Positions 1-10,384 of a stretch of DNA of 27,481 bases are shown piece after piece (positions within the stretch are counted from its first letter, which is position 1; every line of letters begins with the position of its first letter). The notes under the pieces were generated by a model. That model was not told the DNA's origin. It did not search any database and saw nothing but the letters and a program-made list of their open reading frames with translations. Source of the stretch: a virus (Duplodnaviria; Heunggongvirae; Uroviricota; Caudoviricetes); IMG/VR virus record IMGVR_UViG_3300028965_000054, positions 1-27,481 of that record; one strand, given 5' to 3'. The translations under genes were made by a program, and so were the position numbers.

Positions 1-1005
1 TTAATCCCCCGTGGACACTGCGTGGACACTTACGCCTCCTTTCAGCGGATTAAGGGCCACCGCATCCTGCAGGTAATCCGGTGCAAAATGTGCATATGCC
101 ATTGTTTGCTGAATGGTTGCGTGGCCAAGAATCTTCTGAAGCGCAATAATGTTTCCTCCGTTCATCACAAAATGGCTGGCGAACGTATGCCGAAGCACGT
201 GTGCAGCCTGGCCTTTTGGCAAATCGGGCTTAACTCTTTTCAGCGCCAGACAGAATTCCCGGTACTTCACCTCAAACAAGCTCCCTGTTTCTCTGGTTCT
301 GATCGCCTCACAAACCGCCTGCGAAATTGGCACCGTTCTCTTCCGGCCATTTTTGGTTTCAAGAAACGTTACACGGTTATGAACTATCTGTTCACCACGA
401 AGCTTACAAGCTTCACTCCAGCGCGCCCCTGTGCTTAAACACAAAAGCGCAACACGCCAGTAGTCGCCCTCCAGTGTATCGAGCAATAGCGCTACTTCCT
501 TCTGGGACAGGAAAGCCATCTCTCGTGGGGATACATAAAGAATAGAAATCCCCCTTACCGGATGCTCTGCATCCCAGAGGCCTATTTTCTTCAGTACGGT
601 AAACATTCCGGATAACCGATTCATGTATCTGTTAGCAGATGACGGTTTCAATCCATCAGCTATCTTTTGAGAACGCCACGCGATAATTTTCAGCTTATCA
701 AGATCCACAGCCTGCATATCAGCGCCAAGCTCATTGATTATGTTGCGCAGTTGTTTTCGGTCTTCTTCCGCCTTACGCCTGTGCTGGCCGTGATACATCC
801 ACCACAACTCAAGCAAATCATTTAGCGTTCGACGATCACGGTAGCCCTGTATATATTCCCGCTTTTCAGCGTTCGCCATGATGTAGCGTTCAGTGGCCAC
901 CGCTACCGATTTTTTGTCAAATACCTTACGCACGCGCTTTCCCTTGCGTCCGTTCGGCCTGATGTCCAGCAAATAACGACCATCTTCGAGCTTCTTAATC
1001 GACAT
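1..1005 (-). CDS. int: Tyrosine site-specific integrase (P2 Int-like)
   Basis: 334 aa from ATG at 1005..1003 (track ORF starts at an upstream TTG); GGAGGG RBS upstream. C-terminal catalytic region HVLRHTFASHFVMNGGNIIALQKILGHATIQQTMAYAHF is typical of phage integrases (R/H-x-x-R box and Tyr nucleophile). Stop codon is at window bases 1-3. Confidence 0.92.
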   Translation of the reverse strand: MSIKKLEDGRYLLDIRPNGRKGKRVRKVFDKKSVAVATERYIMANAEKREYIQGYRDRRTLNDLLELWWMYHGQHRRKAEEDRKQLRNIINELGADMQAVDLDKLKIIAWRSQKIADGLKPSSANRYMNRLSGMFTVLKKIGLWDAEHPVRGISILYVSPREMAFLSQKEVALLLDTLEGDYWRVALLCLSTGARWSEACKLRGEQIVHNRVTFLETKNGRKRTVPISQAVCEAIRTRETGSLFEVKYREFCLALKRVKPDLPKGQAAHVLRHTFASHFVMNGGNIIALQKILGHATIQQTMAYAHFAPDYLQDAVALNPLKGGVSVHAVSTGD

Positions 1006-1101
1006 TGCGAAGCCCTCCAATGAACCGCTCTACAATTTCTCCAGCCTCTTTCCAGCAATAATCAGACCAGACAAAAAGCAGGTCTAACCAGTTTTCTGGC
1101 C

Positions 1102-1689
1102 TCAGCGGGGTAATTTTTGTTTTGTTTCGGTTGAACTCTGATCGCCCTCCAAACTGGAGAAGCCATCAAGAGAGAGAGGCGGAGCAATCTGCCCCGTCGC
1201 AGCATTAGTTTGATTAAACATTACCCAATCCGAATACTTCCGAAAACGGGGATGATTCAAAATCAGGAGTAGCGTTTCTCCAGGTATCATTCTTCCCAAT
1301 ATTTCATAATTTTTGAGATTGTTTTGAGATACCCCTGTCACCTCTTCCATCGCTCTACGCGACAATCCCTCTGCCTCTCGAATCAGGCGGAGTTTTTCTC
1401 CAAGCTCAGATACCACTTCAGATCCACTACCAGCCAATGGCGTGGGTTCAATTTGCCCATTATCTGGAGACACTTGCCCCGTCATAAGCCAAAGCGCGTA
1501 TTTTTTGAACCTATCAACCTGTAAAACTCGCTCAACCAACTCTGCTCTAGCAGGCTGATGACCTGTTTCATATTTCTGAATAGTATTAAGTGGAATCCCT
1601 GTAATATCAGAGAATTGACGTCTGCTTAACTCTTCCGCCTCCCTCATTCTCATGAGTCTTTGCGAATAGTCTATTGACACGTTTCTCAT
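1102..1689 (-). CDS. Immunity repressor with two tandem HTH (XRE-like) domains
   Basis: 195 aa from ATG 1689..1687 preceded by AAGGAG; track ORF begins at upstream TTG. Two repeats of an HTH-like unit (LSRRQFSDITGIPLNTIQKYETG and LSRRAMEEVTGVSQNNLKNYEILG). Position and orientation match P2 C / 186 cI slot next to int, divergent from cox. Confidence 0.75.
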   Translation of the reverse strand: MRNVSIDYSQRLMRMREAEELSRRQFSDITGIPLNTIQKYETGHQPARAELVERVLQVDRFKKYALWLMTGQVSPDNGQIEPTPLAGSGSEVVSELGEKLRLIREAEGLSRRAMEEVTGVSQNNLKNYEILGRMIPGETLLLILNHPRFRKYSDWVMFNQTNAATGQIAPPLSLDGFSSLEGDQSSTETKQKLPR

Positions 1690-1740
1690 GTGAGAAATAT
1701 ACTCCTTTCTAAATTGAGAAATGCAAGAACAACTCAAATA

Positions 1741-3622: not shown

Positions 3623-3826
3623 ATGGCAATTAAGCATTTTCCCGTCGTTCGCTTTACCTCCAGAGGGCGCGAATACGAGGTCGACGAACGCCTGATTACC
3701 ACTATCGACAAACATCGTTCGGAAAAGGATGCACACCACATCTACCTCACTGACGGCACTTACTTCTGCGCCACCAACGTGGCGCGGGTGAATCTTATCC
3801 GACAGGTACAGGAGCCACGCAGATGA
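3623..3826 (+). CDS. Hypothetical small protein
   Basis: 67 aa; first gene of a run of six ORFs with 4-nt ATGA overlaps. C-terminal codons lie within duplicated junction module copy 1. Confidence 0.55.
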   Translation: MAIKHFPVVRFTSRGREYEVDERLITTIDKHRSEKDAHHIYLTDGTYFCATNVARVNLIRQVQEPRR

Positions 3827-4089
3827 CCATTCTGGACTACATCGCTACTCATCCGGGTTGTAGCGGCGGAGAGATCGCCGCAGCACTGAATACTCCAACC
3901 ACAGCCATTAATGCTGAGTTACGCCAACTTTGGCGCGGCGGCTTAGTCATCAAAACAAACCGCAGCACAGGTGGTCGCGCTCGCAAAACTGGAGGCCGGG
4001 CTTCTTACCACGTAAACCCGATGCCGTTCGGGTGTGGCAACCCACTAACCCACATGTTTAACCAGCTACTGAAGGAAGCCAGAGCATGA
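3823..4089 (+). CDS. Winged-helix DNA-binding protein (putative transcriptional regulator)
   Basis: 88 aa; ILDYIATHPGCSGGEIAAALNTPTTAINAELRQLWRGGLV resembles a MarR/ArsR-type wHTH. Start overlaps upstream stop. Confidence 0.55.
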   Translation: MTILDYIATHPGCSGGEIAAALNTPTTAINAELRQLWRGGLVIKTNRSTGGRARKTGGRASYHVNPMPFGCGNPLTHMFNQLLKEARA

Positions 4090-4208
4090 GCACCATCAAC
4101 CACCAGGAACCACGCGAACTGACGACTGCCGTACAAAGAATGTCTACCCAAAAATCACTGCCATTCCGTGTGAGCCCTGTCCGACAGGTACAGGAGTCAC
4201 ACGGATGA
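4086..4208 (+). CDS. Small ORF (40 aa), translationally coupled
   Basis: Hand translation MSTINHQEPRELTTAVQRMSTQKSLPFRVSPVRQVQESHG; ATG overlaps upstream TGA and its TGA overlaps the next ATG. C-terminus encoded by duplicated junction module copy 2. Confidence 0.35.
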   Translation: MSTINHQEPRELTTAVQRMSTQKSLPFRVSPVRQVQESHG

Positions 4209-4423
4209 ACAGAAGGAGAATTACACGCAGACATCGCCGCACACGCCTGAGCTCCCCGCCAACACTAAAGGAACTCATTCAAAGCGAGATCGGTGATTTC
4301 TTCGCTGGGTTTGGATCACCTGGCGAACCAGAAACACCAGAAGCGATGCAGCGCGAACTCATGATGCGCATCGATAACGTTTTTGACTTTTTCCTGAATA
4401 ACAAAAGAGAGCAACCGACATGA
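4205..4423 (+). CDS. Hypothetical protein with arginine-rich N-terminus
   Basis: 72 aa; N-terminus MNRRRITRRHRRTRL resembles an arginine-rich nucleic-acid-binding motif. Coupled to flanking genes. Confidence 0.55.
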   Translation: MNRRRITRRHRRTRLSSPPTLKELIQSEIGDFFAGFGSPGEPETPEAMQRELMMRIDNVFDFFLNNKREQPT

Positions 4424-4623
4424 ACGAAAGGACCTGGTTTCGCGCATACATGTGGGCGCTGGTATGCGCCCTCTTTTCTCTCATTCTGTATGCAGGACTA
4501 CTCCCCCGAATGATTTCATCAGACAGCTCCTTCCTGGTATTGCTGGGCATTTTCATTGCCATGCTGTACCCGGCAGGCGTTGTTCGCCTTTTCAGTAAGT
4601 ACATCAAGGAAATCAAACAATGA
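4420..4623 (+). CDS. Small integral membrane protein (two predicted TM helices)
   Basis: 67 aa; two hydrophobic stretches (WALVCALFSLILYAGLL and FLVLLGIFIAMLYPAGVV). Start and stop both overlap neighbours. Confidence 0.6.
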   Translation: MNERTWFRAYMWALVCALFSLILYAGLLPRMISSDSSFLVLLGIFIAMLYPAGVVRLFSKYIKEIKQ

Positions 4624-5450
4624 AGAAATTCAAACTCTTTCAGATTATCCCGCTTTTTGCCGCCATCCTGCTGGTTGGTTGCGATCGCGTTGAACCAGGT
4701 AATGTGGGCATCAAAGTCAACAAACTGGGCGACGATAAAGGCGTCGGTGAAGTGGTTGGCGTTGGCCGCTACTGGACAGGCTGGAATACCGAGGTTTACA
4801 TCTTCCCGACCTTCAAACAAATGAAGACCTACGATGAGCCGTTCAGCTTTCAGATGAGTGACGGCACAACCATCGGCTATCACATCGGTGTGGCCTACAA
4901 GGTTGATCCATCCAAAGTTACCACAGTGTTTCAGACCTACCGCAAAGGCGTGGATGACATTACCGACACTGACCTGCGCCAGAAGATCGCCGATGCACTC
5001 AACCGACTGGCCAGCAAAATGACCACCGATAAGTTTATCGACGGTGGTAAGTCTGAACTGCTGGATTCAGCACTTAAAGATATTCAAGAAGAGATGACCC
5101 CCATCGGCATTCAGGTCATGAGCCTCTCTTATGTCGGTAAACCGGAATATCCGCCAACCGTTATCGACAGCATTAACGCCAAAGTCACGGCAAACCAGAA
5201 AACCCTGCAACGCGAACAGGAAGTCAAGCAACGCGAAGCAGAAGCCAACATGCTGCGCGCAGAAGCTGCCGGACAGGCTGATGCCATTCGCACAAAAGCC
5301 CAGGCTGAAGCCGACGCCATTCGTTTACGCGGTGAAGCTCTGCGCCAGAATCCCGGCGTTATGGAGCTGGAAGCAATCAACAAATGGAACGGCACGCTAC
5401 CGCAATACATGACCAGCAATACCGCTGTTCCGTTTGTTCCGGTGAAGTAA
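4620..5450 (+). CDS. SPFH/band-7 (prohibitin/HflC-like) domain lipoprotein
   Basis: 276 aa; signal peptide with lipobox LVGC (Cys21). Central region followed by Ala/Glu/Arg-rich coiled-coil (QREQEVKQREAEANMLRAEAAGQADAIRTKAQAEADAIRLRGEALRQ) is typical of SPFH architecture. Last gene of coupled operon. Confidence 0.7.
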   Translation: MKKFKLFQIIPLFAAILLVGCDRVEPGNVGIKVNKLGDDKGVGEVVGVGRYWTGWNTEVYIFPTFKQMKTYDEPFSFQMSDGTTIGYHIGVAYKVDPSKVTTVFQTYRKGVDDITDTDLRQKIADALNRLASKMTTDKFIDGGKSELLDSALKDIQEEMTPIGIQVMSLSYVGKPEYPPTVIDSINAKVTANQKTLQREQEVKQREAEANMLRAEAAGQADAIRTKAQAEADAIRLRGEALRQNPGVMELEAINKWNGTLPQYMTSNTAVPFVPVK

Positions 5451-5456
5451 TTAAAC

Positions 5457-5501
5457 CCGGCCAGTGAAAATCGCTGGCCGGAGCAGTATCAGGATTTTTT
5501 T
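5457..5501 (+). terminator. Hairpin then T-run after SPFH gene
   Basis: CCGGCCAG-tgaaaatcg-CTGGCCGG hairpin (5457..5481), T7 run at 5495-5501; the 13-nt gap makes it atypical. Confidence 0.4.
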
Positions 5502-5618
5502 AGCATGCCGTTCTCACAAAAAAACCGCTTGCCATGCCGCAATCAGTCAGGTTACATTTCCGCTGCACCTCATAAAACGGGTGCCGGGTTTCGCAGCCTG
5601 CTGACTAGCAAAGCGCAC

Positions 5619-5639
5619 AACCGCGCCAGCGGTTTTTTT
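5619..5639 (+). terminator. Candidate rho-independent terminator inside the non-coding gap
   Basis: AACCGC-GCCA-GCGGTT stem-loop directly followed by TTTTTTT. Confidence 0.4.
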
Positions 5640-5818
5640 GTGCGTACTGTATTGCCACGTCTTTTTCGCACACGAATTATGGCGGGGCGTACGGGGCCGA
5701 CTTCGGTCGGGCCGGGTTCTTTGCTAGCCGGTACTGCGAACCTCGTACGTCTCGCCACCCACAGTTTCGCAGCTCTGGATGGTGAGTTTTCAAAACTTAC
5801 TAGCAAAGAGGCCACACC

Positions 5819-6049
5819 ATGGCAAACCGCAAACAGCACCGCGCTATCGCGGAGCGTCGTCACATCCAGACTGAAATCGATCGCAGACTCACCCGCGCTG
5901 CACACATCGCCTTTATCATGCAATCCAACACATTGCACAGACTCAACAGCACTATTTCAGCCGACTACTGCGCCGCTGTATTCAGCTATCTGGCGGAAGA
6001 CCTCCTGTCTCTTCAGGATCTCATCCAGCAGCAAAACAAACTCCATTAA
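5819..6049 (+). CDS. Hypothetical small protein upstream of replication genes
   Basis: 76 aa; AAAGAGG RBS 7 nt before ATG. Confidence 0.55.
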   Translation: MANRKQHRAIAERRHIQTEIDRRLTRAAHIAFIMQSNTLHRLNSTISADYCAAVFSYLAEDLLSLQDLIQQQNKLH

Positions 6050-6121
6050 TTCCTGTTCCGGGCCTTTCCTGCACCTTGCGGCGGGAGGCCTTCGCACATC
6101 TGTAGTAAAGAGAATTGCAGC

Positions 6122-6511
6122 ATGATTGACCGTCACGACTTCGTAAAATGGGTGCGCACACAGGACACCCGTCTGGCCCCAAAACTTCAGGCAATGTTTG
6201 ATTTTTATCTCCGTGCCCGCGCCAGCCGGGCACGCACCACAAAACCGGAGAACGCAGACACCCTTTATTTCACCGTGGACGACTGTTACCGCGTAGCTTT
6301 CACGCCACAAGGTCTGGCCCTGTACACCCTGACACCACACGGCGACTCCCTGCTGGCGTATTACAACTCCCCGGCCTCCGTATTTGCGGCAATGCTGGCG
6401 CATCGTACCGCTGGCGGGTGTGCCTCGCTGAGTGAATACACCACTGAATTTAACCGCCTTTCCGTCATCTTCTCGCAGGAGTGGCAGCGCGTGACGGGAT
6501 ACCAGCCATGA
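6122..6511 (+). CDS. Hypothetical protein, translationally coupled to gpA-like gene
   Basis: 129 aa; stop overlaps the gpA ATG (ATGA at 6508-6511). Confidence 0.6.
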   Translation: MIDRHDFVKWVRTQDTRLAPKLQAMFDFYLRARASRARTTKPENADTLYFTVDDCYRVAFTPQGLALYTLTPHGDSLLAYYNSPASVFAAMLAHRTAGGCASLSEYTTEFNRLSVIFSQEWQRVTGYQP

Positions 6512-9424: not shown

Positions 9425-10384
9425 ATGAAAATTTGTATCGATGACGGCTCCACCAACATCAAGCTGGCATGGACTGAGAACGGCGAACGCCGCAACGCCA
9501 TCAGCCCGAACAGCTTCAAGTCGGAATGGTCTGCGCCGTTCGGTGGCACGCAGCCCGCGAACTACATGCTTGATGGTGTGCGCTATGGTTTTGATCCGGT
9601 CAGCGATCGCTTTGTCCAGACGACCGACACGCAATACCAGTACAGCGATGTGAATGTCATTGCCATTCATCACGCGCTGGTCAAATCAGGCATCACGCCA
9701 CAGGAGGTGGATGTGGTTGTCACCCTGCCACTGAGCGAGTATTTCGACACAAACGCACAGCCGGACATGGCCAACATCAACCGCAAAAAAGCGAACGTTA
9801 TGCGCCCGGTGGAGTACCAGAACGGCGAGACATTCACTATCCGTAACGTGCGGGTTATGCCTGAATCCATTCCGGCTGGCTTTAAAGCACTGGCTGACAT
9901 GAGTCCGTTTGAATCCCTGCTGATTGTGGATTTGGGCGGAACCACGCTGGATGTGGCAAAGGTTCAGGGGCAACTGGCAGGTATCAGCCAGGTGTTTTGC
10001 GATCCACACGTAGGCGTTTCTCTGATGGCCGATGCCGTGCTGTCGGTGATGGCCACCAACGGTATGCGCACCAGTCACCACATCGCCAATACCATTATCG
10101 AACATCGCCACGATGAAGCCTGGCTGCGCCAGCACATCCACAATGACACGCATTACGCCAGCCTGATGGCAGTTATTCGTGAAAAGGAGGAAACACTGAA
10201 ACAACGCGTGATCCGCGCGCTGGCGGGTTTTTCGGGTTACGGGCGGGTGATGGTTGTAGGTGGAGGAGCGGAGATTGTGGCACCCGCTATCCGCGAAGCC
10301 TGCGGAGTTAATGCGACTTTCATCGCGGACGGGGTGCCACAATTTGCTCTGGTTAATGGGCTGTACGCAATGGACAAGGAGTAA
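9425..10384 (+). CDS. parM: ParM/StbA-like actin-type partition ATPase
   Basis: 319 aa; N-terminus MKICIDDGSTNIKLAW...ISPNSFK...YSDVNVIAIHHAL closely parallels recalled plasmid R1 ParM (MLVFIDDGSTNIKLQW...ISPNSFK...YSDVNVVAVHHAL). AAGGA RBS. Confidence 0.88.
   Translation: MKICIDDGSTNIKLAWTENGERRNAISPNSFKSEWSAPFGGTQPANYMLDGVRYGFDPVSDRFVQTTDTQYQYSDVNVIAIHHALVKSGITPQEVDVVVTLPLSEYFDTNAQPDMANINRKKANVMRPVEYQNGETFTIRNVRVMPESIPAGFKALADMSPFESLLIVDLGGTTLDVAKVQGQLAGISQVFCDPHVGVSLMADAVLSVMATNGMRTSHHIANTIIEHRHDEAWLRQHIHNDTHYASLMAVIREKEETLKQRVIRALAGFSGYGRVMVVGGGAEIVAPAIREACGVNATFIADGVPQFALVNGLYAMDKE

What the first reader, a model, noticed from the sequence alone, without database searches (positions are those of the whole stretch)
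3623..5450. Six-gene translationally coupled early operon ending in a 2-TM protein and an SPFH/band-7 lipoprotein
Six consecutive ORFs (67, 88, 40, 72, 67, 276 aa) are linked by ATGA overlaps, implying fixed stoichiometry. The set includes a winged-helix protein, an Arg-rich N-terminus protein (MNRRRITRRHRRTRL), a 2-TM protein and a lipobox-bearing SPFH-domain protein. I know of no such module in the P2 cox-A interval. Host SPFH proteins HflK/C regulate the FtsH protease that degrades lambda CII, so a phage SPFH lipoprotein could tune lysis-lysogeny, or act in superinfection exclusion or abortive infection.
Basis: partly seen in the sequence, partly recalled or inferred. Interest (0 to 1): 0.65.

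Follow-up and report, generated by a model that had tools for sequence, protein, structure and literature searches.

The report
Portable phage SPFH membrane-cage gene pair
The six linked genes are real, but only the last two belong together: a small two-helix membrane protein and a lipid-anchored SPFH protein that travel as a pair between many unrelated phages, including the model phage N4, are very strongly conserved, and have no known function.

Summary
Six + strand ORFs (67, 88, 40, 72, 67, 276 aa) at 3623-5450 are joined by five ATGA overlaps. The 88-aa protein is a MarR-type winged helix and the 276-aa protein is a lipobox-bearing SPFH/Band_7 protein.

The "six-gene module" reading does not hold. 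ORFs 1-4 are ordinary early genes of P88-like (Xuanwuvirus, P2-like) phages, and the 40- and 72-aa ORFs are the two halves of one ~99-aa "ead/Ea22-like" gene. Only the 2-TM and SPFH genes form a unit. They are a ~1.08-kb insertion in a slot that is empty in most relatives.

The same pair occurs in lambdoid and Stx prophages, P1-like and other ~90-110-kb plasmid-borne phage-like elements, and virulent phages (N4 gp19/gp20, jumbo phage Munch, 4MG). It is in 13% of complete E. coli genomes. All 93 SPFH loci examined carry the 2-TM gene or a remnant of it, and natural fusions of the two exist. The mature SPFH part is always 256 aa with dN/dS of 0.008-0.09.

I infer that it builds an SPFH cage on the periplasmic face of the inner membrane, together with its hairpin partner, and acts during lytic growth. 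Its biological role is unknown; I think an envelope-level role such as exclusion or membrane protection is more likely than tuning of FtsH/CII.

The parts
3623..3826 (+). ORF of 67 aa, a conserved early gene of P88-like phages (phrog_3459, unknown function). It is not part of the mobile pair.
   Evidence: phrog_3459, E 1.1e-45. It is present in P88, 705R2 and Shae_phiSM. It also matches positions 84-135 of phrog_19053, whose positions 162-243 match the next gene, so the two are fused in some phages.
3823..4089 (+). MarR-type winged-helix protein of 88 aa, a conserved early gene of the lineage.
   Evidence: Pfam MarR_2, E 3.3e-6. phrog_1687 'MarR family' E 6e-31. 211 viral contigs encode a relative.
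4086..4208 (+). N-terminal fragment (40 aa) of a split ~99-aa 'ead/Ea22-like' gene.
   Evidence: Matches phrog_4144 positions 1-30. Aligns with the intact genes of P88, 705R2 and Shae.
4167..4211 (+). Copy (80% identical) of the 45-nt ORF67/wHTH stop-start junction at 3785-3829. It supplies the stop codon, Shine-Dalgarno sequence and ATG that split the ead-like gene.
   Evidence: Direct-repeat family D1 and alignment A1.
4205..4423 (+). C-terminal fragment (72 aa) of the split ead-like gene, with a new Arg-rich N-terminus.
   Evidence: Matches phrog_4144 positions 34-99, E 1.7e-27. The same split allele occurs in 7 of the 80 related loci surveyed, with two different downstream cargos.
4420..4623 (+). 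2-TM hairpin protein of 67 aa, predicted N-in/C-in. It is the obligate partner of the SPFH gene and a homologue of N4 gp19.
   Evidence: phrog_1130. Two hydrophobic segments. Present, or present as a remnant, in all 93 SPFH loci. 28% identity to N4 gp19, E 3e-8. Signature P-x3-S-x9-G. dN/dS of 0.1-0.5.
4620..5450 (+). SPFH/Band_7 lipoprotein of 276 aa: signal peptide residues 1-20, lipobox Cys21 with Asp at +2, and a 256-aa mature protein. It is a homologue of N4 gp20.
   Evidence: Pfam Band_7, E 5.7e-31. AF2 model and Foldseek hits to HflK/C, prohibitin, erlin and stomatin, E ~1e-13. 63% identity to N4 gp20. dN/dS of 0.008-0.09.
5457..5481 (+). GC-rich hairpin that closes the inserted cassette. 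A run of seven T follows 13 nt later, so it is not a canonical intrinsic terminator.
   Evidence: Minimum free energy -21.8 kcal/mol, z-score -3.9. It lies inside the ~1085-nt insertion. The terminator scan did not call it.
4423..5504 (+). Extent of the ~1.08-kb insertion relative to the empty site in related phages, flanked by a repeated CATG/ATG.
   Evidence: Alignment A3 against 705R2 and P88. A constant gap of 1080-1087 nt in all eight cassette-bearing loci for which the gap could be measured, plus the window itself.

Best explanation
Window 4420-5450 is a portable two-gene phage module. It encodes a 67-aa two-helix hairpin membrane protein and a lipid-anchored SPFH protein. It has been inserted into a variable slot at the end of the early (Cox-side) operon of a P88-like P2-family prophage. 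The four ORFs upstream are unrelated lineage genes, and two of them are halves of one split gene. Inferred mechanism: the SPFH protein is exported, lipid-modified at Cys21 and kept in the inner membrane by Asp at +2. There its SPFH domain, long coiled-coil helix and C-terminal tail assemble into a ring or cage on the periplasmic face of the membrane, as HflK/C, QmcA, stomatin and prohibitin do. This cage encloses a membrane patch that contains the hairpin partner, whose conserved turn (P-x3-S-x9-G) faces the periplasm. The pair sits in early or middle lytic operons, in virulent as well as temperate phages, so it most probably acts during lytic growth at the level of the envelope. My favoured role is insulation of the inner membrane, either against incoming DNA from superinfecting phages or against premature loss of membrane potential and early lysis. 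What is shown: the module, its borders, its mobility, the pairing, the fold and the selection. What is inferred: the topology, the cage and the biological role.
For: Module and borders: the empty site in 705R2 compared with the filled sites in the window and P88, and a constant ~1085-nt gap. Mobility: Stx and lambdoid prophages, phiP27, P1-like RCS47, ~90-110-kb plasmids and Yersinia pestis. The pair is in 711 of 5426 E. coli genomes. Pairing: all 93 SPFH loci carry the 2-TM gene or a remnant of it. Diverged 2-TM genes are always followed by a Band_7 gene wherever the contig continues. The pair is present in N4 (gp19/gp20), Fifi051, Munch, 4MG, Pseudomonas, Burkholderia and crAss-like phages. 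At least 10 of 140 cluster representatives are fusions of the two, and one fusion was seen in three separate sequencing runs in a phage-like contig. Fold: Band_7 and Foldseek hits to cage-forming SPFH proteins. The SPFH domain starts 2 residues after the lipidated Cys, and the model has a 65-residue helix at 179-243. Constraint: the mature protein is 256 aa in every variant, with dN/dS of 0.008-0.09 while dS reaches about 1 or is saturated. Timing: there is no promoter-like site inside the block and a strong one at 1674-1703 upstream of cox; in N4 the pair lies just after the RNAP2 genes. Papers state that the function of phage SPFH proteins is unknown (PMC7760394, PMC13239085) and that N4's exclusion system has not been identified (PMC12642591).
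Against: No experiment bears on the role. Oligomerisation could not be modelled. The monomer model has only moderate confidence (pLDDT 68.9, with the last 30 residues below 50). Inner-membrane retention rests on the +2 rule, which is my own knowledge, and N4 gp20 has Tyr and 4MG has Glu at +2. N4 rapid-lysis mutants do not map to gp19/gp20, which speaks against an essential role in lysis inhibition. Expression from the prophage state cannot be excluded, because the promoter scans are uninformative. Fusions are sporadic singletons among unfused relatives.
Confidence: 0.6

Rival explanations
1. The SPFH protein mimics HflK/C. It binds or cages the host protease FtsH from the periplasmic side and so changes the stability of phage regulators (CII-like proteins) or host substrates, tuning the lysis-lysogeny decision.
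For: HflK is the best PDB match by sequence (E 1.2e-4). HflK/C chains are among the top fold matches. The predicted side of the membrane is the same as for HflK/C. Extreme conservation would fit a conserved host target such as FtsH.
Against: NCBIfam HflC and HflK scores are 25.7 and 23.5 bits against cut-offs of 134 and 159. Prohibitin, erlin and stomatin match the fold equally well, at 13-18% identity. The pair is carried by strictly virulent phages (N4, Munch, 4MG) and by P2-like and P1-like phages, which have no CII-type switch (my own knowledge). A lysogeny-tuning role therefore cannot be its general function.
Confidence: 0.12
2. The pair is a toxin-and-cage defence (abortive infection) module. 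The 2-TM protein is a holin-like membrane poison held inactive by the SPFH cage and released when another phage infects.
For: The 2-TM protein is small, has two helices and has a basic C-terminus, like class II holins (the Kayvirus paper PMC7150955 says the same of MbpV). The pair is prophage cargo in a variable slot. In P1-like contigs it lies near a Tad2-like gene.
Against: Neither protein convincingly matches any PADLOC model: the SPFH protein has no hit and the 2-TM protein has only a marginal one (E 0.0066). Virulent phages carry the pair in their own early or middle operons, which a host-protecting suicide system would not explain. In the P88-like prophage it sits in the repressed early operon with no promoter-like site of its own. 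The SPFH protein is nearly invariant while the supposed toxin diverges to 21-30% identity, which is not the pattern of a tightly co-evolving toxin-antidote pair.
Confidence: 0.1
3. The pair is a lysogenic-conversion or virulence factor. The lipoprotein benefits the bacterial host, for example through envelope-stress tolerance or immune stimulation, rather than the phage life cycle.
For: A prophage-island HflK/C-like SPFH protein of Pasteurella multocida (PM0222) is reported to be a virulence factor acting through TLR1/2 (PMC9872710). The pair is common in E. coli, including Stx phages.
Against: The same pair is in virulent phages that never lysogenise. In temperate carriers it lies in early lytic operons. 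I did not test whether PM0222 belongs to this subfamily.
Confidence: 0.08
4. All six ORFs form one functional module whose products assemble in fixed proportions, as the finding's title proposes.
For: There are five consecutive ATGA overlaps. P88 has the same order of genes.
Against: About 60 of the 80 related loci have the first genes but an empty slot. Others have different cargo in that slot. The last two genes occur without the first four in many phage lineages. Two of the six ORFs are halves of one gene. The coupling between the ead-like gene and the 2-TM gene was created by the insertion itself.
Confidence: 0.03

Closest known systems
Coliphage N4 gp19 (membrane protein) and gp20 (lipoprotein); also P88 gp11/gp12
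   Same: These are direct homologues in the same arrangement. The SPFH proteins are 63% identical (E 3e-129) and the 2-TM proteins 28% identical (E 3e-8), with overlapping stop and start codons. P88 gp12 is 99.6% identical.
   Different: N4 is virulent and carries the pair after its RNAP2 genes, whereas here it is cargo in a prophage early operon. Neither N4 gene has a described function in the papers I could search.
E. coli HflK/HflC-FtsH complex (PDB 7vhp, 7wi3, 9cz2)
   Same: It has an SPFH domain, a long coiled coil and a C-terminal cap region. It is a membrane-anchored cage on the periplasmic face of the inner membrane that encloses membrane proteins (fold match E ~1e-13).
   Different: Identity is only 16-18%. 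The protein fails the HflK and HflC family cut-offs. It is anchored by a lipid rather than a transmembrane helix, is a single paralogue rather than a K/C pair, is much shorter (256 aa mature), and has no known link to FtsH.
SPFH-NfeD operons, for example E. coli QmcA-YbbJ (PDB 8z5g)
   Same: An SPFH gene forms a two-gene operon with a small membrane protein that sits inside the cage (my own knowledge of 8z5g; fold match, rank 35).
   Different: The partner here is a bare 2-TM hairpin with no NfeD or OB-fold domain (no Pfam NfeD hit). The gene order is partner first. The SPFH domain is predicted to face the periplasm, whereas QmcA faces the cytoplasm (my own knowledge).
Kayvirus (Staphylococcus phage K) MbpV/MbpS
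   Same: A small membrane protein gene overlaps an SPFH protein gene in a virulent phage. It was noted in PMC7150955 as a holin-like protein plus an SPFH protein.
   Different: Identity is only 25%. MbpV has one TM helix plus a charged tail, not the P-x3-S-x9-G hairpin. MbpS appears to be TM-anchored. The pair lies beside the endolysin gene.
Envelope-level superinfection exclusion proteins (T4 Imm and Sp, P1 Sim, P22 SieA, T5 Llp)
   Same: These are small inner-membrane, periplasmic or lipoprotein products made early in infection or from prophages, and they act at the envelope (my own knowledge). The resemblance is one of possible function only.
   Different: There is no sequence or fold relationship, and none of them is an SPFH protein. 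Exclusion activity of the present pair has not been tested.

Membership tests
SPFH / Band 7 superfamily | Pfam PF01145 match above the gathering score | tested here: met
   E 5.7e-31, 108.4 bits against a cut-off of 23.6. Residues 23-209 cover profile positions 2-176 of 176.
SPFH / Band 7 superfamily | SPFH alpha/beta fold followed by a long coiled-coil helix, as in cage-forming members | tested here: met
   In the AF2 model, beta strands at 21-95 and 164-176 and three helices at 97-162 are followed by a helix at 179-243. Foldseek gives probability 1.0 for HflK/C, prohibitin, erlin, stomatin, flotillin and QmcA.
SPFH / Band 7 superfamily | Assembly into a high-order ring or cage | not testable with these tools
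   No multimer prediction or coordinate access was available. This is inferred from the complete domain layout and the very low dN/dS.
HflK / HflC (FtsH modulators) | Score above the NCBIfam equivalog cut-offs for HflK or HflC | tested here: not met
   TIGR01932 hflC scores 25.7 bits against 134.4. TIGR01933 hflK scores 23.5 against 159.4. The PRK models score about 20 against 427-660.
HflK / HflC (FtsH modulators) | N-terminal transmembrane anchor and a paired K and C paralogue | tested here: not met
   The anchor is a lipobox signal peptide, not a TM helix. There is a single SPFH gene at each locus.
SPFH-NfeD operon | Partner protein with an NfeD (OB-fold) domain | tested here: not met
   The 67-aa partner has no NfeD hit at E up to 1. 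Its only hits are weak ones to RseC_MucC, P9_TM and DUF2207_C, all below their cut-offs.
Bacterial lipoprotein retained in the inner membrane | Signal peptide with a lipobox [LVI][ASTVI][GAS]C and Asp at +2 | tested here: met
   The sequence MKKFKLFQIIPLFAAILLVGC-D is present, and GCDR is kept in all ten enterobacterial cassette variants compared. The actual lipidation and localisation were not tested.
Known anti-phage defence systems (PADLOC-DB 2.0) | Match to any defence-protein model | tested here: not met
   The SPFH protein has no hit at E up to 0.1. The 2-TM protein has only a marginal hit to PDC-M18B (E 0.0066, over 21 residues).
Holins (class II) | Small protein with two TM helices and a charged C-terminus, encoded in a lysis cassette next to an endolysin gene | tested here: inconclusive
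   The size, the two helices and the basic C-terminus fit. There is no holin Pfam or PHROG match, and the gene is not next to lysis genes here or in N4.
N4 gp19/gp20-type phage pair (phrog_1130 + phrog_200) | A 2-TM hairpin gene with the P-x3-S-x9-G turn immediately upstream of, and overlapping, a ~275-aa SPFH lipoprotein gene | tested here: met
   phrog_1130 E 3.7e-22 and phrog_200 E 3.3e-112. The ATGA overlap is present. The signature is in alignment A5. Homology to N4 gp19 and gp20 is shown.

The most novel reading that the evidence does not exclude
The N4 gp19/gp20-type pair may be a previously unrecognised, widespread phage device: a lipid-anchored SPFH cage on the periplasmic face of the inner membrane, with a dedicated hairpin subunit. 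It would wall off a patch of the infected cell's membrane, for example to block genome entry by superinfecting phages (the missing N4 exclusion system) or to keep the membrane energised against premature holin triggering or membrane-targeting host defences. That would be the first defined function for a viral SPFH protein.
Probability: 0.3. Interest if true: 0.75.

Novelty: new variant of a known kind. Interest (0 to 1): 0.5.

Why it matters
SPFH proteins (stomatin, prohibitin, flotillin, HflK/C) are now known to build membrane cages, but what most of them do is still unsettled. The phage versions have no assigned function at all. Here the SPFH gene turns out to be half of a compact two-gene module that is common: relatives of the SPFH protein are in 828 sequenced phage genomes, and the pair is in 13% of complete E. 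coli genomes. It is exchanged between unrelated phage lineages, is as strongly conserved as a housekeeping gene, and is present in tractable model phages (N4; a looser version in phage K). That makes a simple genetic test possible. If the pair acts in exclusion or membrane protection, it would add a new mechanism of phage-phage competition or lysis control. It would also provide a minimal system for studying how SPFH cages work.

Tried and rejected
- Promoter and terminator consensus scans in four contexts gave counts at or below the shuffled expectation. They cannot say whether the pair has its own promoter.
- The PADLOC scan found no defence-family match.
- The genome-contig scan with the alignment returned only 11 loci, because the derived patterns were too strict.
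- My first script for upstream ORFs picked the longest ORF, which was in the wrong frame in many loci. I corrected this.
- Literature searches for SPFH together with prophage, anti-phage, lipoprotein or bacteriophage found no functional study.
- The N4 lysis preprint lists no rapid-lysis mutation in gp19/gp20.
- The CRISPRi-ART paper does not mention these genes.
- I considered using natural fusions to model the complex and dropped the idea, because the structure tool returns no coordinates or contact information.
- Fusions as proof of interaction were downgraded to supporting evidence. The fused P0244 is a singleton among unfused relatives, although it is reproducible in three sequencing runs.
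- I considered a spanin role and rejected it: the gene is not in a lysis cassette, and Asp at +2 predicts inner-membrane rather than outer-membrane location.
Full report
**1. The observation**

The window has six + strand ORFs at 3623-3826 (67 aa), 3823-4089 (88), 4086-4208 (40), 4205-4423 (72), 4420-4623 (67) and 4620-5450 (276). Each pair is joined by an ATGA stop/start overlap. Pfam assigns MarR_2 to the 88-aa protein (E 3.3e-6) and Band_7/SPFH to the 276-aa protein (E 5.7e-31, full-length match to the domain). The 276-aa protein begins with a signal peptide ending in the lipobox LLVGC, followed by Asp. The second 67-aa protein has two hydrophobic helices. Four-base overlaps are frequent elsewhere in this phage, so they are a property of its operons rather than a mark of a six-protein complex.

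**2. Where we are**

The window is a P2-family prophage. It has an integrase (1-1020, minus strand), a 210-aa repressor with two HTH domains, Cox (PF10743), DUF4761, DUF4754, and later a replication endonuclease and the morphogenesis genes. The closest sequenced phage is P88 (Xuanwuvirus, Peduoviridae), whose gp08-gp12 are the same block at about 92% DNA identity. A strong promoter-like site (TTGACA-18-TATACT) lies at 1674-1703, upstream of cox, and none lies inside the block. As far as sequence can tell, the block is the distal part of the early lytic operon.

**3. The first four ORFs are lineage genes, and two of them are one gene**

- Relatives such as 705R2 and Citrobacter phage Shae_phiSM carry the 67-aa gene, the winged-helix gene and a single ~99-aa gene annotated "ead/Ea22-like" in the same order.
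- The window's 40-aa and 72-aa ORFs match positions 1-30 and 34-99 of the same PHROG, phrog_4144, and align with the two ends of the intact gene.
- The middle of the gene has been replaced. The replacement contains an 80% identical copy (4167-4211) of the 45-nt stop/start junction between the 67-aa and winged-helix genes (3785-3829). This copy supplies a stop codon, a Shine-Dalgarno sequence and an ATG, and turns one gene into two coupled ORFs in different frames.
- The split allele is not a sequencing accident. It recurs, with both ORFs intact, in 7 of 80 related viral contigs and with two different downstream cargos.
- The 67-aa and winged-helix proteins both match parts of one longer PHROG, phrog_19053, so those two probably work together.

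**4. The last two genes are a separate, inserted unit**

- In about 60 of the 80 related loci, the ead-like gene is followed directly by the next conserved element.
- That element is an RNA region that Rfam identifies as isrK (5565-5639, 65.5 bits) and a C4 antisense RNA (5675-5762, 82.8 bits), followed by a "derepression protein" ORF.
- In the window, in P88 and in the cassette-bearing loci of the survey, a segment of constant length (1080-1087 nt) lies between the two.
- Alignment with the empty site places the borders at about 4423 and 5504, flanked by a repeated CATG/ATG.
- The insert holds exactly the 2-TM gene, the SPFH gene and a GC-rich hairpin (-21.8 kcal/mol, z-score -3.9).
- The same slot can instead hold a 183-aa protein with several HTH motifs, and in other relatives the ead-like gene is replaced by a reverse-strand 157-aa membrane protein.
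- The ATGA coupling between the ead-like gene and the 2-TM gene was created by the insertion.

**5. The pair travels widely and always together**

Carriers of the SPFH gene beyond P88-like phages include:
- Stx2-converting and other lambdoid prophages, between the repressor and the integrase;
- phiP27;
- P1-like phage RCS47;
- ~90-110-kb plasmid-borne elements;
- a Yersinia pestis contig.

The pair alone matches 711 of 5426 complete E. coli genomes, at 418 chromosomal and 386 plasmid places.

In the Stx2 phage and in RCS47 an unannotated small 2-TM ORF overlaps the start of the SPFH gene. Of 93 loci with the SPFH gene, 88 had the 2-TM ORF by an automatic test. The other five were as follows:

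| Locus | What was found |
|---|---|
| L002 | Threshold artefact; the 62-aa 2-TM ORF is present |
| L015 | 2-TM gene frameshifted |
| L070 | 2-TM gene truncated at its 5' end |
| L087, L088 | 2-TM gene present but separated from the SPFH gene by an IS-like insertion of about 770 bp |

Searching from the other side, the 2-TM family has 197 members, all from Enterobacterales and without any Pfam domain. For four of its diverged members that I looked up, a ~275-aa Band_7 gene follows directly wherever the contig continues.

**6. The pair is not restricted to temperate phages**

- tblastn finds relatives of the SPFH protein in 828 of 50,697 phage records.
- The pair is present in coliphage N4, where it is gp19 "membrane protein" and gp20 "lipoprotein", just after the RNAP2 genes and next to gp18, which is annotated "superinfection exclusion; similar to P22 gp17". 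gp20 is 63% identical to the window protein and gp19 is 28% identical.
- It is also present in an N4-like Erwinia phage, in jumbo phage Munch (74%) and in the rV5-like phage 4MG (47%, with one extra small ORF between the two genes).
- It is present in phages of Pseudomonas and Burkholderia and in a crAss-like phage.
- Across these phages the hairpin keeps the signature P-x3-S-x9-G at the turn between the helices.
- In Staphylococcus phage K-like genomes an SPFH gene (mbpS) is likewise overlapped by a small membrane-protein gene (mbpV). That partner is of a different kind, and the pair lies beside the endolysin gene.

**7. Evidence that the two proteins act together**

Besides the invariable adjacency and coupling, at least 10 of the 140 full-length cluster representatives of the SPFH subfamily are single proteins. 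In these, a 2-TM hairpin with the same turn motif precedes a third hydrophobic segment, which still ends in a lipobox, and then the SPFH domain. This layout is topologically consistent: the positive-inside rule places both ends of the hairpin in the cytoplasm, and the signal-like segment then carries the SPFH domain outward. One such fusion (P0244) is a singleton among unfused relatives, so fusions are sporadic. It is nevertheless identical in three separate sequencing runs and lies in a phage-like early region beside a PDDEXK/DUF3799 exonuclease gene.

**8. Selection**

- The mature SPFH protein is 256 aa in every variant and 80-100% identical, while the partner falls to 21-53% and the signal peptide to 30-61%.
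- This is not recent transfer alone. Between the window and the P1-like copy, dS is 0.99 and dN is 0.008, giving dN/dS of 0.009. Across all variants where dS could be estimated, dN/dS is 0.008-0.09.
- The partner gives 0.1-0.5 where dS can be estimated. It is a real gene under weaker constraint.
- DNA similarity between the P2-like, Stx and P1-like copies begins almost exactly at the lipobox Cys codon. The cassette is therefore itself mosaic.
- Constraint of this strength over the whole length fits a protein whose surfaces are nearly all interfaces, as in a homo-oligomeric cage, or one that binds a conserved host component, or both.

**9. Structure and comparison with known SPFH systems**

- The AF2 model (pLDDT 68.9) has the SPFH alpha/beta domain starting two residues after the lipidated Cys, a 65-residue helix (179-243), a short helix and a low-confidence tail.
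- Foldseek matches full-length chains of HflK/C, prohibitin, erlin, stomatin, flotillin and QmcA at E values from 1e-13 to 1e-7 and 13-18% identity. No one family stands out.
- By sequence the best PDB hit is HflK, at E 1.2e-4.
- The NCBIfam HflK and HflC models score far below their cut-offs.
- The partner has no NfeD domain.
- The protein is thus a member of the SPFH superfamily with the full cage-type layout, but not a member of the HflK/C or SPFH-NfeD families.
- Asp at +2 is the classical inner-membrane retention signal in E. coli (my own knowledge), and GCDR is conserved in all enterobacterial variants compared.

**10. What it most likely does**

Shown: a portable, obligately paired, strongly constrained two-gene module that encodes an exported lipid-anchored SPFH protein and a hairpin membrane protein.

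Inferred: a cage on the periplasmic face of the inner membrane that includes or encloses the hairpin.

The biological role is unknown in the literature I could search. Two phage-genome papers say so explicitly (PMC7760394, PMC13239085), and no paper links SPFH to anti-phage activity.

The distribution argues for a role in lytic growth that does not depend on the lysogeny circuit. The carriers are virulent as well as temperate, the pair sits in early or middle operons, and the phage backbones have unrelated switches. That weakens the FtsH/CII proposal, although the fold and the membrane side are compatible with it.

I favour an envelope-level role: blocking entry of superinfecting genomes, or keeping the membrane intact and energised until programmed lysis. 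N4's exclusion system is still unidentified (PMC12642591). On the other hand, N4 rapid-lysis mutants do not map to gp19/gp20. A caged holin-like toxin and a host-benefit or virulence role (Pasteurella PM0222, PMC9872710) remain possible but fit the distribution less well.

**11. Verdict**

The item is not a new six-gene system. It is a known but uncharacterised phage gene pair sitting in a variable slot, next to ordinary lineage genes, one of which has been neatly split. I class it as a new variant of a known kind: an SPFH scaffold with a small membrane partner, here lipid-anchored, periplasmic and phage-borne. Interest is moderate (0.5). It is not surprising as a gene, but it is a common, tightly conserved module of unknown function that can be tested in model phages.

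Noticed in passing
window 5565-5639 and 5675-5762 (also ORFs 5505-6125 and 5819-6049): Rfam finds an isrK Hfq-binding RNA (65.5 bits) and a C4 antisense RNA (82.8 bits) directly downstream of the cassette, followed by a 76-aa 'derepression protein' ORF (PF25738). This looks like a P1/P4-style RNA immunity element between the early operon and gene A. The 206-aa ORF across it, annotated as a hypothetical protein in relatives such as 705R2, is probably spurious.
   Followed up: partly
window 3785-3829 and 4167-4211: A 45-nt direct repeat (80% identical). The stop/start junction of the 67-aa and winged-helix genes has been copied into the middle of the ead-like gene, converting one gene into two translationally coupled ORFs. 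The allele recurs in 7 of 80 related loci with two different downstream cargos.
   Followed up: yes
window 3623-4089: The 67-aa protein and the winged-helix protein match adjacent parts (84-135 and 162-243) of one 246-position PHROG (phrog_19053). They are therefore fused in some phages and probably act together.
   Followed up: no
window 1102-1737 (minus strand): The immunity repressor here is 210 aa with two HTH domains (HTH_31, HTH_3). The C proteins of P88 and 705R2 are 93-113 aa. This prophage therefore has a different immunity region from its closest relatives.
   Followed up: no
L150 5098-5649, L160 4347-4898, L111 4833-5306 (minus strand): There are alternative contents at the same slot. 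One is a 183-aa protein with several HTH-like motifs, also present in Citrobacter phage Shae_phiSM. The other is a reverse-strand 157-aa membrane protein that replaces the ead-like gene. Neither matches a PADLOC defence model convincingly.
   Followed up: partly
L087 5236-6000 (Shigella flexneri) and L088 (E. coli): An IS-like insertion of about 770 bp separates the 2-TM gene from the SPFH gene. This is one of the few cases in which the pair is disrupted.
   Followed up: partly
L103-L105, 6730-7305: In P1-like ~90-kb contigs, a Tad2-like (PF11195, anti-Thoeris family) gene lies about 700 nt downstream of the cassette, in a tRNA-rich variable region.
   Followed up: no
L199 2669-2983 (N4 gp18): The gene just upstream of the N4 pair is annotated 'superinfection exclusion; similar to P22 gp17'. 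It is an acidic 104-aa protein with no membrane segment. Whether it is functionally linked to gp19/gp20 is unknown.
   Followed up: no
proteins P0244, P0250, P0254, P0257, P0267, P0269, P0288, P0291, P0292, P0294: Natural fusions of the 2-TM hairpin with the SPFH protein keep a lipobox at the end of the third hydrophobic segment. This raises the question of whether such a precursor is cut by signal peptidase II into two parts.
   Followed up: partly
window 9425-10384: The ORF after the replication gene corresponds to the gene annotated 'plasmid segregation protein ParM' in P88, which is an unusual gene for a P2-family phage. It had no PADLOC hit.
   Followed up: no
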